From the IMG/VR virus record IMGVR_UViG_3300025011_000016: a stretch of 64,000 nucleotides of DNA. One strand, given 5' to 3'. The DNA is from a virus (taxonomy: Duplodnaviria > Caudoviricetes). The notes under the pieces were generated by a model. That model ran no database searches and had not been told where the DNA came from. It saw nothing but the letters and a program-made list of their open reading frames with translations. Shown piece by piece: positions 30,661 through 37,476 of the stretch. Within the stretch, counting starts at the first letter, position 1. Each line of letters opens with the position of its first letter. The position numbers and the translations under genes are program-made.

Positions 30661-31398
30661 ATGACAGATTTAGAAATAGTGAAGATGAATCACCTAAATA
30701 TTTTAATTCTCCAGAATCCTCCCAGTAAAGAAGTTCAATTAGCAACTGTCAAAAAAAATGGCCTTATGATCAGATACATTGATGATCCAGATAATGAAAT
30801 CAAATTAGCTGCTGTAAGACAAAATTGTGAAGCTCTTAAGTATATTAAAAATCCCGATACTGAAGTGCAGTTATTAGCAGTAAAGTATGATCCTACTGCT
30901 ATTGAACAAATTATAGATCCAAGTAAACCGATCCAATGCGCTGCAGTTTCAGCCCATGGTCTTGCACTTCAGTATATTAAAGAACCAACTAGAATTATAC
31001 AAAGTGTAGCGCTTAAACAAAATGGATATGCTATTAAGTTTATAGCTAGTCCGGATAAAGGTCTGCAATTAATAGCTGTTAATGAAAGTGGATGTGCTAT
31101 TAAATATATCAATAACCCTGATATTGATGTACAAATATTAGCATTGGAAAAAGATGGTGATGCTATCCAATTTATTAAAAACCCATCGAAAGATTTACAG
31201 TTAATAGCTGTAAAACAAAATCTTAGATCGCTTACATTAATTGATAATCCAGACTCTGAAGTTACAGAATATGTATTATTAGAATTAATGAAAGAAAGGG
31301 AAAGAATTACAAATGCTAATAATGTGAATCATAATAAACATATTAGTTGCAATCTCATATTAGACGTATCTACAGTGACTGATCTAAAGAAACATTAA
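30661..31398 (+). CDS. 22-aa-repeat protein 1 (DUF4116-like)
   Basis: Eight repeats of the form NPSKEVQLAAVKQNGxAIxYIK, with N- and C-caps. Confidence 0.85.
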   Translation: MTDLEIVKMNHLNILILQNPPSKEVQLATVKKNGLMIRYIDDPDNEIKLAAVRQNCEALKYIKNPDTEVQLLAVKYDPTAIEQIIDPSKPIQCAAVSAHGLALQYIKEPTRIIQSVALKQNGYAIKFIASPDKGLQLIAVNESGCAIKYINNPDIDVQILALEKDGDAIQFIKNPSKDLQLIAVKQNLRSLTLIDNPDSEVTEYVLLELMKERERITNANNVNHNKHISCNLILDVSTVTDLKKH

Positions 31399-31431
31399 AT
31401 AAAAGAATAAAATATTAGGAGGAATTTATTA

Positions 31432-32307
31432 ATGGAAAAATTAACAGATTTAGAAATGATGCAGAAAAATCCTTTAAATATCATGTTTATTGAGAATCCT
31501 AGTAAAGAGGTTCAATTAATTGCAGTCAATCATAATGGAAAATATATCCGGTTTATTAAAAACCCAGATAAGGATGTTCAACGCGCTGCTGTTATTGAAA
31601 CTGGTCGTAATATTAAATTTATTATGAACCCAGATATTGAAGTCCAGTTAATCGCTATAAATCAATCTTGGGCTTATATTAAATTTATATCAGATCCACA
31701 TGAGGAAATTCAACAAATCCTAGTCAAAATTAATCCTACCTATATCAGTTTAATAAAAAATCCAGCATTATCTGCACAATATCAAGTATTGAATCATTCC
31801 CCTAACGGGAAGTATTTTAAATATATCAATAATCCCGATGTAACAATTCAACTAGAGGCAGTTAAACGAAAAAGTCGCAATATCAAATATATAGACAATC
31901 CCAGTGAGGAGGTTCAGTTAGTTGCTGTTACAAAGAGGCCAATTTCTATTAAATTTATTAAAGAACCGACTAAAGAGGTCCAATTAATCGCTGTGGTATA
32001 TTATGGGCGTAACATTCAATATATCAAAAACCCCGATGAGGATATCCAGGAAGCTGCAGTTATATCAGATGCGCCAACTATTCAATTTATTAAAGATCCA
32101 AGTATAGAGATACAAGAAGTTGTAATTTCCATGAATGTTAGTTTTATTAGATATATTGAAAATCCAGATATGTGTATTCAACTGAAGGCTGTTGAAATTG
32201 ATATTGATAATATTAAATATATTAATACTCCGCACTCAGAAGTATTAGAATATGTAAAACAAAAACTTCGTGATAAATTAAATGACGATAAAGGAAGTGT
32301 TAATTGA
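31432..32307 (+). CDS. 22-aa-repeat protein 2
   Basis: Same repeat. N-cap MEKLTDLEMMQKNPLNI. Confidence 0.85.
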   Translation: MEKLTDLEMMQKNPLNIMFIENPSKEVQLIAVNHNGKYIRFIKNPDKDVQRAAVIETGRNIKFIMNPDIEVQLIAINQSWAYIKFISDPHEEIQQILVKINPTYISLIKNPALSAQYQVLNHSPNGKYFKYINNPDVTIQLEAVKRKSRNIKYIDNPSEEVQLVAVTKRPISIKFIKEPTKEVQLIAVVYYGRNIQYIKNPDEDIQEAAVISDAPTIQFIKDPSIEIQEVVISMNVSFIRYIENPDMCIQLKAVEIDIDNIKYINTPHSEVLEYVKQKLRDKLNDDKGSVN

Positions 32308-33023
32308 TGACTGATTTAGAAATGGTGCAGAAGAATCCTTTAAACATTTTACTTATTAAAAACCCAACTAAGGAGATTCAAATGGTAGTCGTTACAAATG
32401 AGGGTAGTAATATTCAGTTTATTGAGAGTCCTGATAAAGATGTGCAAATAAAAGCATTATCTAGTAGTAAATTTGATAGTGACGATATAATCAAATATAT
32501 TAAAAATCCAGACATGGACGTGAAATCAACAGCAGTAAGTATTGACGGATTTGCTATCCAATATATTAAAGACCCGAGTGAAGAATTACAATTACTTGCG
32601 GTCAAAGAAAATGCATACGCCCTTCAATTCATTAAAGATCCAAGTAAAAAGGTCCAGTTGGCTGCGGTGAGTAATGATGGGGATGTTATTGAATATATCA
32701 AAAACCCAGATAAGGATGTACAAATAGCCGCAGTACAAGAATCAGGTTATGCCATTCGATGGATCGTTCATCCTGATGATGACATTTGCGTTATGGCTCT
32801 ACAACAAAATGGATTTGCCATCAGTTGCTTTGGGGAACCTTCAGATGCATTAAAACTTATTGCAGTTCAACAAGATGGCAATGTCATTCGATGTATTGAA
32901 AATCCATCAGTTGAGATTCAAATGATCGCTGTAAAACAGAGTATTAATTTTATTACACATTTATTCAATCCCCATCCTGATGTATTAGAGTATGTAAAAC
33001 AAGAACTATTAAAGAATTTGTAA
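32304..33023 (+). CDS. 22-aa-repeat protein 3
   Basis: Same repeat. C-cap NPHPDVLEYVKQELLKNL. Confidence 0.85.
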   Translation: MMTDLEMVQKNPLNILLIKNPTKEIQMVVVTNEGSNIQFIESPDKDVQIKALSSSKFDSDDIIKYIKNPDMDVKSTAVSIDGFAIQYIKDPSEELQLLAVKENAYALQFIKDPSKKVQLAAVSNDGDVIEYIKNPDKDVQIAAVQESGYAIRWIVHPDDDICVMALQQNGFAISCFGEPSDALKLIAVQQDGNVIRCIENPSVEIQMIAVKQSINFITHLFNPHPDVLEYVKQELLKNL

Positions 33024-33067
33024 TCTATGAAATAAAGAATATGATAATTCATACTCTTTATTTTTTA
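32965..33067 (+). repeat. ~100-bp direct repeat (C-cap, stop codon and terminator), second copy at about 33671-33773
   Basis: aatccccatcctgatgtattagagta...aagaactattaaagaatttgtaatctatgaaataaagaatatgataattc is present twice with few mismatches. Confidence 0.85.
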
Positions 33068-35678: not shown

Positions 35679-35710
35679 ATTCAAAATAAATATTTAGGAG
35701 GAATTTAAAG

Positions 35711-36424
35711 ATGAATAATACATTATTAGTAATCAAAGATCCTTTAAACATCTTAACCATTAAAGATCCGAGTGAAGAGGTTAAACTAGCTGCCGTAACC
35801 ACAGCAGGTTATGTTATCCAGTTCATTGAAAATCCAAGTGTTAATCTCCAATTAAAAGTCGTACGGACAGATGGAAGACTTATTCGTTATATCAATAATC
35901 CATGTAAAGAAGTTCAGATAGCTGCAGTTGAGCAGAATGGAGTAGCTATTCGTTACATACCAGACCCATGTGAAGAGGTTCAATTGGCGGCTGTACTTGA
36001 AGAAGGGACTTCTATTAAGTTCATTAAAAATCCTTCTATTCAGTTACAAACTATTGCTGTTCAACAGAATGGTTACGCCATTCGATATATTTCAGATCCA
36101 AGTAAAGAACTTCAACTTACTGCTGTAGAGCAAAGTGGTTGTGCTATTAAGTATATTAGACAACCTGCTAAAAATATCCAAATGGCTGCCGTAAAACAGG
36201 ATGCACGAGCTATGGAGTTCATTAAAGTATTCAGTATGGAGGTAGCCATATTAGCTGTACAAAAGGATTGTTCTACTATTAAAAGATTTGCCCATCCTAG
36301 TAAAGAAGTGCAAATGGCTGCTGTTAAGACTGATATACATTGTATTAGATATATTATCAATCCTGATGCTGAGGTAATGGAATATGTAAAACAACAGTTA
36401 AAACACTCTATAGTTTTCAGATAA
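35711..36424 (+). CDS. 22-aa-repeat protein 8
   Basis: About nine regular repeats. Confidence 0.85.
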   Translation: MNNTLLVIKDPLNILTIKDPSEEVKLAAVTTAGYVIQFIENPSVNLQLKVVRTDGRLIRYINNPCKEVQIAAVEQNGVAIRYIPDPCEEVQLAAVLEEGTSIKFIKNPSIQLQTIAVQQNGYAIRYISDPSKELQLTAVEQSGCAIKYIRQPAKNIQMAAVKQDARAMEFIKVFSMEVAILAVQKDCSTIKRFAHPSKEVQMAAVKTDIHCIRYIINPDAEVMEYVKQQLKHSIVFR

Positions 36425-36507
36425 CTTAATTAACTAAAAGTAAGAATACGATAATTCGTATTCTTACTTTTTTTGTTTATATATTATAATAATGTAATAC
36501 ATAAAAA

Positions 36508-37476
36508 ATGAAGGAGCTAACAAACAAAATGGAAGGCTATACCCGGAAAGATATTCCTTTAGAAAAATTAAATATGATCAACTCCATTATTAATCAAACG
36601 ATTACATTGGAGAAACAAAGTGAACAAGCACAACTAGAATCAGTTTTAAACTGTGCCTGGGACATTAAATTTATGCATAATACCACAGAAAAAGTCCAAT
36701 TGGCTGCCGTAAAACAAGATGGAATGTTATTGCAGTTTATTAAAGATCCGTCTGAAAAAGTTCAACTGACTGCTATCAAACAAAATGGACAGGCGATATG
36801 CTTTATTGAGCATCCGTCCGAATTATTACAAATGACAGCAGTTAAGAACTCTATTAAGGCTAAAGCGTTACAATATATTCACAATCCGCTAGAGGTAGTA
36901 CAGATAACTGCTCTTAAACAAGATGGGAAGATGATACAGTTTATCAATAATCCATCTGAAGATGTACAATTAACAGCAGTAAGGGAAAATGGTACAGTAA
37001 TTAAATATTTATTCAATCCATCGGAGCGAGTCCAACTAGCAGCTATTGAAAAAAATCCTATAGTTATAATGCATATTAAGAAACCTTTTAAAACAGTGAT
37101 TCTTAAAGCATTAAATCTAGATTATAGTCTCATTAGGTGCATTGCTAATCCTAGTGAGGAAATTCAATTAGCTGCTGTTGATATATGCCCTGATGCAATT
37201 CGATATATCTATGATCCTAGTAGAAAGGTTATAGATTATACTAAGAGGCTTCTAGCTAAACAAATTGATTCCTCGGGTATATATATTAAAGAAAAACTTA
37301 GTGTACTAGTTAACTGTAGAAATAAAACTATTTATGTGATTGTCTTCAATGGTAATGGTAAAGTTAATTCTCTGTTATCCAAAAATGATATACTAACAAA
37401 TGCTGAAGCTGATCAATATGTTAGTGAACTTAGAGAGAAATTCAATATAGCTAAAATTGAATATGACGCGGATTAA
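36508..37476 (+). CDS. 22-aa-repeat protein 9 with N- and C-terminal extensions
   Basis: Repeats followed by a C-terminal beta-rich extension. Early motif at 36478-36488. Confidence 0.85.
   Translation: MKELTNKMEGYTRKDIPLEKLNMINSIINQTITLEKQSEQAQLESVLNCAWDIKFMHNTTEKVQLAAVKQDGMLLQFIKDPSEKVQLTAIKQNGQAICFIEHPSELLQMTAVKNSIKAKALQYIHNPLEVVQITALKQDGKMIQFINNPSEDVQLTAVRENGTVIKYLFNPSERVQLAAIEKNPIVIMHIKKPFKTVILKALNLDYSLIRCIANPSEEIQLAAVDICPDAIRYIYDPSRKVIDYTKRLLAKQIDSSGIYIKEKLSVLVNCRNKTIYVIVFNGNGKVNSLLSKNDILTNAEADQYVSELREKFNIAKIEYDAD

What the first reader, a model, noticed from the sequence alone, without database searches (positions are those of the whole stretch)
30661..37476. Array of nine capped 22-aa-repeat proteins: a natural binder library
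Seen: nine early genes share an N-cap (TDLEMVQKNPLNI-like), about 2-11 internal 22-aa repeats and a C-cap (NP...V.EYVK.EL). Scaffold positions are constant, while others, especially around the NG-x-x-I turn, vary widely. Some members have insertions or fused domains. Established: capped helical repeat proteins present variable binding surfaces. Inference: a diversified set of host-protein binders, for example anti-defence or host-takeover factors. The repeats resemble DUF4116 but are shorter.
Basis: partly seen in the sequence, partly recalled or inferred. Interest (0 to 1): 0.7.

Follow-up and report, generated by a model that had tools for sequence, protein, structure and literature searches.

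The report
Early DUF4116 solenoid gene array, jumbo phage
Nine neighbouring genes of an uncultured groundwater giant phage encode capped helical-repeat proteins of the known but functionally untested DUF4116 family; they sit behind early-type promoters, so they are probably made first after infection to bind host or phage proteins, and similar gene families already occur in other giant phages and giant viruses.

Summary
Nine + strand genes (30661-37476) encode proteins built from a 22-residue unit (N-P-s-x-E-V-Q-L-x-A-V-x-x-N-G-x-A-I-x-Y-I-x), with 2 to 11 units each. Eight have the N-cap clearly and eight have the C-cap.

They are true DUF4116 (PF13475) proteins, not look-alikes. Seven of nine pass Pfam's cut-off and all nine match phage families PHROG 5925 and 17056 (function unknown). 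The 22-residue period is the norm among their 240 nearest relatives. AlphaFold2 gives a confident two-helix solenoid (pLDDT 96) with no specific solved relative.

New here: the array forms five promoter-to-terminator units. Each starts with TATATATTAT-N6-G (A in one), the core of the early promoter mapped in Bacillus phage AR9.

A distant relative (216 kb) keeps DUF4116 genes beside the same virion RNA-polymerase gene, but only two there.

Variable positions are the predicted exposed ones, led by position 16, which is rich in Tyr, Arg and Trp family-wide. Synonymous sites are saturated, so positive selection cannot be shown. Six other assemblies read are identical over the array, apart from three deletions in two of them.

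The binder idea is plausible (giant-virus members are named as F-box or kinase proteins) but untested. This scan has already noted DUF4116 arrays in other genomes. Verdict: a new member of a known kind.

The parts
30613..30629 (+). Early-type promoter P1: TATATATTAT, six bases, G (predicted +1 at 30629); drives g1-g2-g3
   Evidence: AR9 consensus AAATATATATTAT-N6-G in PMC5312081
30661..31398 (+). g1, 245 aa: N-cap, 8 units, C-cap, 45-residue tail
   Evidence: PF13475 62.7 bits; phrog_5925 1.5e-43
31432..32307 (+). g2, 291 aa: N-cap, 11 units (one of 24 aa), C-cap
   Evidence: PF13475 31.7 bits; phrog_17056 3e-71
32307..33023 (+). g3, 238 aa from ATG 32307 (239 aa from TTG 32304): N-cap, 9 units (one of 26 aa), C-cap; net charge -13. 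Start overlaps the g2 stop. 11-nt and 36-nt deletions in its last unit in two other assemblies
   Evidence: PF13475 55.5 bits
33029..33064 (+). Terminator hairpin T1 followed by a T-run
   Evidence: -12.4 kcal/mol, z -5.9; repeat family D11
33091..33107 (+). Early-type promoter P2 (predicted +1 G at 33107); drives g4
33139..33729 (+). g4, 196 aa: N-cap, 6 units, one split by a 23-residue insertion, C-cap identical to that of g3. 27-nt in-frame deletion in one other assembly
   Evidence: PF13475 30.2 bits
33735..33770 (+). Terminator hairpin T2 followed by a T-run
   Evidence: -15.9 kcal/mol, z -6.9
33777..33793 (+). Early-type promoter P3 (A, not G, at the predicted +1); drives the small ORF and g5
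33816..33998 (+). 60-aa ORF with no family, overlapping the g5 start by 4 nt (ATGA)
33995..34468 (+). g5, 157 aa: N-cap, about 4 degenerate units, no C-cap. The most diverged member (22-30% identity to the others)
   Evidence: no Pfam hit; phrog_17056 6e-13
34480..34513 (+). Terminator hairpin T3 followed by a T-run
   Evidence: -12.0 kcal/mol, z -5.8
34543..34559 (+). Early-type promoter P4 (predicted +1 G at 34559); drives g6-g7-g8
34591..35142 (+). g6, 183 aa: N-cap, 6 regular units, C-cap; pI 9.2
   Evidence: PF13475 51.9 bits
35157..35678 (+). g7, 173 aa: about 95 N-terminal residues of no known family, then N-cap, 2 units, C-cap
   Evidence: PF13475 18.2 bits, below cut-off; phrog_5925 5e-14
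35711..36424 (+). g8, 237 aa: N-cap, 9 units, C-cap; the member modelled
   Evidence: PF13475 68.4 bits; AF2 pLDDT 95.9, 21 helices
36436..36471 (+). Terminator hairpin T4 followed by a T-run
   Evidence: -19.6 kcal/mol, z -7.4
36478..36494 (+). Early-type promoter P5 (predicted +1 G at 36494); drives g9
36508..37476 (+). g9, 322 aa: about 40-residue helical N-extension, 8 units, C-cap, then about 85 C-terminal residues of no known family
   Evidence: PF13475 50.1 bits
37486..37511 (+). Terminator hairpin T5 followed by a T-run; marks the end of the array
   Evidence: -10.7 kcal/mol, z -2.8
37533..37544 (+). AACA-N6-TA late-type promoter motif in front of the next gene (37573); marks the boundary of the early block
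   Evidence: AR9 late consensus in PMC5312081

Best explanation
The region is a tandem family of nine paralogous DUF4116 (PF13475) proteins in an AR9-like jumbo phage with its own multisubunit RNA polymerases.

Shown or predicted with confidence: each protein is a soluble alpha-solenoid with no signal peptide. It is built from 22-residue helix-turn-helix units (a 10-residue helix A and a 6-residue helix B). It begins with a half unit and ends with a lengthened helix. The genes form five units, each with a promoter-like motif in front and a terminator-like hairpin behind.

Inferred: the injected virion RNA polymerase transcribes them from TATATATTAT-N6-G promoters within minutes of infection. 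The proteins have no catalytic motif. They probably act stoichiometrically, gripping host or phage proteins through the exposed positions 12-14, 16, 19 and 22 (the A-to-B turn and the outer face of helix B). In this phage, positions 3-5 and 9 on helix A would contribute as well. The paralogues differ in length (2-11 units), charge (-13 to +5) and appended domains, so each would have a different partner. Together they would serve host take-over or counter-defence.
For: Family: seven of nine proteins pass the PF13475 cut-off. All nine match phrog_5925 and phrog_17056 at E 8e-12 or better.

Fold: AF2 pLDDT is 95.9 with regular 10+6-residue helices. The g9 solenoid part scores above 90. The best structural matches are DUF4116 proteins of giant viruses, jumbo phages and cells, with TM up to 0.87.

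Early expression: the ten-base motif occurs 9 times in the window against 1.26 expected, and 5 of these head the five units. The six-base spacing to G is exact in 4 of 5 and matches the mapped AR9 early promoter. Each unit ends in a hairpin plus T-run. No late motif precedes any of the nine genes. The relative's DUF4116 gene relB carries the same motif.

Binding role: variation sits at predicted exposed positions. Position 16 is the family-wide hot spot and is rich in Tyr, Arg and Trp. In the relative's 33 units, positions 8-11 are nearly invariant and 3-5 little varied despite saturated synonymous sites, while 12-14, 16 and 19 vary. Structurally matching giant-virus entries are named F-box or protein-kinase proteins (names only). 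Cellular relatives carry varied extra domains.

Conserved place: DUF4116 genes lie beside the virion RNAP beta gene in a phage whose beta protein is only 37% identical.
Against: No partner, binding or expression has been observed. Substitution at the variable positions never exceeds the saturated synonymous level, so relaxed constraint explains the pattern as well as selection does. Exposure was inferred from helical periodicity, not from coordinates. g5 (no C-cap, degenerate units) and g7 (two units) may be decaying. One other assembly carries a frameshift in g3. In AR9 the promoter variant AACTATATATTAT, which three of the five promoters here carry, was inactive, so promoter activity here is an extrapolation. 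The appended domains of g7 and g9 match nothing.
Confidence: 0.55

Rival explanations
1. The array is mostly dispensable. It is a duplicating, eroding gene family kept by recombination between repeats, and its members have little individual function.
For: Paralogues are only 22-49% identical, and g5 and g7 look eroded. Deletions in g3 and g4 occur among otherwise identical assemblies, one of them a frameshift. Gene number differs greatly between relatives, 9 against 2 at this locus. Variable positions are at neutral saturation.
Against: Core positions P2, Q7, A10, V11, I18 and I21 are strongly kept although synonymous sites are saturated (pS 0.71). This shows long purifying selection on the fold in most copies. 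Every unit keeps an intact promoter motif, ribosome-binding site and terminator. The locus persists beside the virion RNAP beta gene across deep divergence.
Confidence: 0.15
2. The proteins are accessory factors of the phage's own transcription or replication machinery, for example adaptors of the virion RNA polymerase, rather than binders of host proteins.
For: The genes adjoin the virion RNAP beta gene here and in the 216-kb relative. In Bacillus phage AgentSmith two DUF4116 genes lie directly upstream of a gene annotated as an RNAP beta subunit.
Against: The AgentSmith neighbour is not homologous to this beta fragment. Such phages scatter many RNAP subunit genes, so adjacency is weak evidence. 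AR9, the reference phage for this polymerase type, gave no match to g8 in the phage collection. Copy number varies too much for a fixed subunit.
Confidence: 0.1
3. The proteins are particle or injected-cargo proteins, delivered with the DNA.
For: The next genes downstream here (from 37573) stand behind a late-type motif.
Against: All five units carry the early motif and none carries the late motif AACA-N6-TA in front. In AR9, genes of virion proteins such as g121 and g153 are transcribed late. The N-termini show no L/I-x-E type cleavage site for the T4-type prohead protease (my reading).
Confidence: 0.07
4. The proteins are modular nucleic-acid readers, one unit per base, like TALE, PUF or PPR arrays.
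For: The units are regular and the hypervariable residues flank the inter-helix turn. PPR proteins are among the weak structural matches.
Against: Six of nine proteins are acidic (pI 4.6-6.2, net charge down to -13). No conserved basic stripe is present. The PPR matches are generic (Z 6.5 or less, rmsd above 10 A).
Confidence: 0.04

Closest known systems
Pfam DUF4116 (PF13475), and PHROG families 5925, 17056, 25923 and 35305
   Same: Direct sequence membership. The predicted alpha-solenoid is the same (a trRosetta solenoid is reported in PMC8078820). The function is unknown in the databases as well.
   Different: The unit here is 22 residues; two units span 41-42 residues against 44-45 Pfam model positions. 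That period is shared by the nearest 240 relatives. This array also varies at positions 3, 4, 9, 13 and 17, which are better conserved family-wide.
DUF4116 multigene families of other large viruses: Salicola phage SCTP-2, Agrobacterium phage Atu_ph07, Bacillus phage AgentSmith; Klosneuvirus, Hokovirus, Mimivirus LCMiAC01, Marseillevirus LCMAC201, Bodo saltans virus
   Same: Several paralogues per genome (10-18 tblastn places in three of the phages). AgentSmith has a tandem set, genes 92-94. Structural matches are strong.
   Different: Nine genes in 6.8 kb, arranged in five early promoter-terminator units, has not been described. Some giant-virus entries are named F-box or kinase proteins; the members here carry only orphan extensions.
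Poxvirus ankyrin-repeat host-range gene families (reviewed in PMC4353913, seen only as a search hit); comparison from general knowledge
   Same: A large virus carries many diverged paralogues of a helical repeat scaffold that are thought to bind host proteins.
   Different: The repeat family is unrelated (33-residue ankyrin against a 22-residue two-helix unit). The hosts are different. The function here is untested.
Leucine-rich repeat variant (LRV) protein of Azotobacter vinelandii, PDB 1LRV
   Same: A very short (24-residue) two-helix solenoid unit. It is the top Foldseek PDB match and the top PDB profile match.
   Different: The matches are not significant (E 0.22 and 0.25, TM 0.29, Z 5.1). 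It cannot be called a relative.
Designed capped consensus-repeat binders (DARPins, designed armadillo repeat proteins); comparison from general knowledge
   Same: An N-cap, identical-scaffold internal units with a few varied surface positions, and a C-cap. Such designs appear among the weak structural matches.
   Different: These are natural proteins. Nothing shows that the variable positions were selected for binding.

Membership tests
DUF4116 (PF13475) | Pfam HMM score at or above the gathering cut-off of 24.9 bits | tested here: met
   g1 62.7, g2 31.7, g3 55.5, g4 30.2, g6 51.9, g8 68.4, g9 50.1 bits. g7 scores 18.2 bits (below cut-off) and g5 has no hit. Both match the phage profiles phrog_5925 and phrog_17056 at E 8e-12 or better.
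DUF4116 (PF13475) | Tandem helix-turn-helix units forming an alpha-solenoid | tested here: met
   AF2 of g8: pLDDT 95.9, 21 helices in a 10+6-residue rhythm. The best BFVD and AFDB matches are named DUF4116 proteins, with TM up to 0.87.
AR9-type early (virion-RNAP) genes | Promoter AAATATATATTAT-N6-G upstream of the transcription unit | tested here: met
   The ten-base core lies in front of all five units and the N6-G spacing is exact in 4 of 5. The three bases before the core differ from AR9 (AAC, AAC, AAG, AAC, GTT).
AR9-type early (virion-RNAP) genes | Transcripts appear early and without new protein synthesis | not testable with these tools
   The phage is uncultured.
Actively diversified binder sets (diversity-generating or positively selected) | Non-synonymous change exceeds synonymous change at surface positions, or the positions vary within the population | tested here: not met
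   The highest pN/pS (against global pS) is 0.99 at position 16 in the window and 0.83 in the relative, with pS 0.63-0.71, which is saturated. The six assemblies read, from several samples, are identical over the array except for three deletions in two of them.
Virion structural or late genes | Late promoter AACA-N6-TA in front of the gene | tested here: not met
   On the + strand of 30000-38500 the motif occurs only inside g1 and g3 and at 37533, in front of the next gene.
LRV repeat (1LRV) | Significant sequence or structure match | tested here: inconclusive
   Profile against PDB E 0.25. Foldseek E 0.22, TM 0.29. VIA Z 5.1.
HEAT / Armadillo repeats | Pfam HEAT or Arm match at the curated cut-off with a scored domain | tested here: inconclusive
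   HEAT 20.2 and 17.8 bits against a cut-off of 23.5. Arm 21.7 bits for g2 against 20.6, but no single stretch passes. Only generic structural resemblance, Z 7.2 or less.

The most novel reading that the evidence does not exclude
The nine early solenoids are a panel of stoichiometric inhibitors or decoys. Each is tuned to a different host machine or defence protein, making the array a phage counterpart of the poxvirus ankyrin host-range families. Showing this would assign DUF4116 its first function, as a general target-recognition module of large viruses.
Probability: 0.25. Interest if true: 0.6.

Novelty: new member of a known kind. Interest (0 to 1): 0.3.

Why it matters
DUF4116 is a large repeat family with no experimental structure matched here and no known function. 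It is expanded in jumbo phages, in giant viruses and in many protists and bacteria. This locus is a compact case: nine diverged paralogues, each in a predicted early transcription unit, in a phage lineage with a cultured relative that carries a similar tandem set (Bacillus phage AgentSmith). Finding partners for these proteins would give the family a first function and might reveal new host take-over or counter-defence factors. As it stands, the locus adds an instance and a transcription map, not a new principle.

Tried and rejected
- blastn of the whole array against 50,697 phage records found no match.
- No whole genome is held for this window.
- PDB searches by Foldseek, VIA-align and profile found only generic helical-repeat resemblance: E 0.2 or worse, Z 7.2 or less. 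AFDB Swiss-Prot gave the same.
- NCBIfam found nothing meaningful.
- Per-position dN/dS failed. Units in the window average 52% nucleotide identity with pS 0.71, and units in the relative have pS 0.63. Both are saturated, so no test of positive selection is possible.
- Close relatives for an ortholog-based test do not help. The assemblies read are identical apart from three deletions, and a search with the virion RNAP beta protein found only one remote viral contig.
- Appended domains stay unidentified. The Atlas gave only short, generic alpha/beta matches for the g9 C-terminus and nothing usable for the g7 N-terminus. An exhaustive HMMER search with the g9 C-terminus gave one hit, a 2,931-residue cadherin-repeat protein matched in seven weak stretches (best pairwise E 3e-4, across domain borders). 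I regard this hit as spurious. AF2 models the g9 C-terminus at pLDDT 38-76.
- Expression: no RNA holder was listed among the public runs, and no reads were laid.
Exposure of positions was therefore inferred from helical periodicity only.
- A complex prediction (g5 with the overlapping 60-aa ORF, or homodimers) was considered but not run, because adjacency alone is too weak a reason.
- Literature: four papers mention DUF4116 and none gives a function. The jumbo-phage comparative review PMC7824862 gave no passage on this family under the repeat-related terms searched. No paper was found on phage AgentSmith.

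
Full report
OBSERVATION. The window holds nine + strand ORFs between 30661 and 37476. Splitting their products at the recurrent N/D-P motif gives rows of exactly 22 residues. Forty-eight clean units give the consensus N-P-s-k-E-V-Q-L-x-A-V-x-x-N-G-x-A-I-x-Y-I-k. P2 is invariant. I21 (94%), I18 (92%), Q7 and A10 (85%) and V11 (79%) are nearly so. The most variable positions are 16 (3.95 bits), 13, 22 and 12.

An HMM built from these units finds 55 units in a six-frame scan of all 64 kb. 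Every one lies inside the array. Unit counts run from 2 (g7) to 11 (g2). The N-cap is the second half of a unit and the C-cap is a lengthened first helix. Eight genes have each cap clearly. g9 has a degenerate N-cap. g5 has no C-cap and its units are degenerate. The paralogues are old: 22-49% protein identity, and units average 52% nucleotide identity. Promoter, ribosome-binding site, caps and terminators are better conserved, at 75-88%.

WHAT IT IS. Seven of the nine proteins pass the Pfam gathering score for DUF4116, PF13475. All nine match the phage families phrog_5925 and phrog_17056 at E 8e-12 or better, both of unknown function. Two units do span 41-42 residues against 44-45 positions of the Pfam model. 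However, in the 240 nearest database relatives the spacing of unit starts is 22 in 1,168 of about 1,200 cases. The short period is therefore a subfamily norm.

AlphaFold2 models g8 at pLDDT 95.9 as a regular solenoid of 10-residue and 6-residue helices. The solenoid part of g9 is equally confident. No solved structure matches specifically. The best PDB rows are generic armadillo, ankyrin, PPR and designed repeats, plus the 24-residue LRV protein 1LRV (E 0.2 or worse, Z 7.2 or less). Predicted-structure libraries return DUF4116 proteins of giant viruses, jumbo phages and cells, with TM up to 0.87.

SETTING. The neighbours are split virion RNA-polymerase beta pieces with an HNH gene among them. 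A virion structural protein and a 3,332-residue ORF also lie in the window. Earlier notes of this scan describe the genome as an uncultured groundwater jumbo phage with AR9-like features. No whole genome is held. The same phage was assembled in at least 21 contigs. Holders of the stretch are groundwater metagenomes.

TRANSCRIPTION MAP (new here). The array forms five units. Each starts with TATATATTAT at 30613, 33091, 33777, 34543 or 36478. A G follows exactly six bases later in four of the five. Each unit ends in a stable hairpin plus T-run (-10.7 to -19.6 kcal/mol, z -2.8 to -7.4). The units are g1-g2-g3; g4; a 60-aa ORF plus g5; g6-g7-g8; and g9.

The ten-base motif occurs 9 times in the window against 1.26 expected, and no shuffle reached 9. 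It is the core of the early promoter mapped by dRNA-seq in Bacillus phage AR9, AAATATATATTAT-N6-G. That promoter is read by the injected virion polymerase without new protein synthesis (PMC5312081). The AR9 late motif AACA-N6-TA is absent in front of the nine genes. It appears at 37533 in front of the next gene.

One caveat applies. Three promoters here read AACTATATATTAT, and that variant was inactive in AR9. 'Early' is therefore a well-grounded inference, not an observation. No RNA data were available.

RELATIVES. One viral contig (215.8 kb, IMG/VR) carries close relatives. Its virion RNAP beta protein is unsplit (1,390 aa) and 37% identical to the fragment here. On the other strand, after three small genes, lie two DUF4116 genes of 268 aa and about 609 aa. 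The second has the same early motif with G at +7. A third DUF4116 gene lies elsewhere on that contig. The place beside the polymerase gene is thus old, while gene and unit numbers change freely.

Cultured jumbo phages also hold several copies: SCTP-2 (18 places), Atu_ph07 (10) and AgentSmith (10, including the tandem genes 92-94). This scan has already noted DUF4116 arrays in other genomes.

TEST OF THE BINDER-LIBRARY IDEA. By helical periodicity, the conserved positions 6, 7, 10, 11 and 8 form one face of helix A. Positions 17, 18 and 21 form one face of helix B. The variable positions 5, 9, 12 and 13, and 16 and 19, lie on the opposite faces. This is inferred from periodicity; I had no coordinates.

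In the relative's 33 units, positions 8-11 are nearly invariant and 3-5 vary little, although synonymous sites are saturated (pS 0.66). Variation is confined to positions 12-14, 16, 19 and 22, which are the A-to-B turn and the outer face of helix B. Across 1,298 distinct units of 240 relatives the same positions vary. Position 16 is the hot spot, at 3.84 bits, and is rich in Tyr, Arg, Asn and Trp. That composition is typical of protein-binding sites (general knowledge). In the window's own array, positions 3, 4, 9, 13 and 17 vary more than in the family. Net charge runs from -13 to +5.

Giant-virus entries that match the model bear the names F-box protein (TM 0.87, rmsd 1.9 A over 222 columns) and protein kinase (names only). 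Cellular relatives carry varied extra domains. This fits a recognition module attached to effector parts.

Against the stronger claim, non-synonymous change never exceeds the saturated synonymous level: 0.99 at most here and 0.83 in the relative. The six other assemblies read are identical over the array, apart from an 11-nt frameshifting deletion and a 36-nt in-frame deletion in g3 and a 27-nt in-frame deletion in g4. Nothing indicates ongoing diversification, and g5 and g7 look eroded.

APPENDED PARTS. The g9 C-terminal 85 residues, the g7 N-terminal 95 residues and the 60-aa ORF overlapping g5 match no family. The one exhaustive-search hit for the g9 tail is a cadherin-repeat protein matched in seven weak stretches. 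I consider that hit spurious. AF2 does not model the tail confidently.

VERDICT. The region is a nine-gene array of DUF4116 solenoid paralogues, predicted to be early. The binder reading is the best available mechanism (about 0.55) but is untested, and 'library' overstates it. The kind is known: it is named in Pfam and PHROGs, is multi-copy in other large viruses, and was seen before in this scan. This is a new member of a known kind, with moderate-to-low interest. Its main value is as an entry point for giving DUF4116 a function.

Noticed in passing
window 40083-40084 (and 40084-64000): G+C jumps from about 30% to about 44% here. Four other assemblies of the same phage match the window up to 40083 and then continue with different DNA of 31% G+C in the two compared (the other two run on past 40083 without matching the window). 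Two further contigs (248.6 and 241.7 kb) end at 40041 and 39037. The window's right-hand 24 kb may be a chimeric join or lie beyond a genome end.
   Followed up: partly
window 23394-30515, - strand: The virion RNAP beta gene is in pieces (893 aa at 27834-30515, 254 aa at 24396-25160) with an HNH endonuclease gene at 23394-24185. Its ortholog in the 216-kb relative is one 1,390-aa ORF. Earlier notes ascribe the split to group I introns.
   Followed up: no
window 32902-32937 and 33521-33547: These are the only differences between assemblies inside the array: an 11-nt (frameshifting) or a 36-nt (in-frame) deletion in the last unit of g3, and a 27-nt in-frame deletion in the g4 insertion. They may be real population variants or assembly errors in repeats.
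   Followed up: partly
window 33816-33998: A 60-aa ORF of no family shares promoter P3 with g5 and overlaps its start (ATGA). The junction TGTTAA-ATGACTGAT nearly repeats the g2/g3 junction TGTTAA-TTGATGACTGAT. This suggests the junction was duplicated and the ORF may be a remnant of an older array member.
   Followed up: no
L001 1-123 / L002 11058-11180 (IMGVR_UViG_3300017565_000002): The 123-nt terminal overlap lies inside the repeat array of a DUF4116 gene. It is presumably the basis on which the contig is classed as having direct terminal repeats and as 100% complete. The circular closure and the 609-aa gene length may therefore be repeat artefacts.
   Followed up: partly
L005 6585-8882 and L013 2930-4580 (Bacillus phage AgentSmith, MW749006.1): Genes annotated 'conjugal transfer protein TrbH', 'conjugal transfer protein' and 'acetyltransferase' (AGENTSMITH_92-94, 100) contain DUF4116 repeats, so the product names look like mis-annotations. 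Genes 92-94 lie beside a tubulin-like gene.
   Followed up: no
P0006, P0035, P0232 (metagenomic relatives): A roughly 230-residue N-terminal domain with a G-T-K-W-C-T-A-A motif is fused to 22-residue DUF4116 units. IMG gives these proteins unrelated names (EutS, PTP, RNAP epsilon). An earlier scan note (e1-4510242) describes the same kind of fusion.
   Followed up: no
window 19850, 19933, 20033, 25330: The other four copies of TATATATTAT in the window lie outside the array.
   Followed up: no
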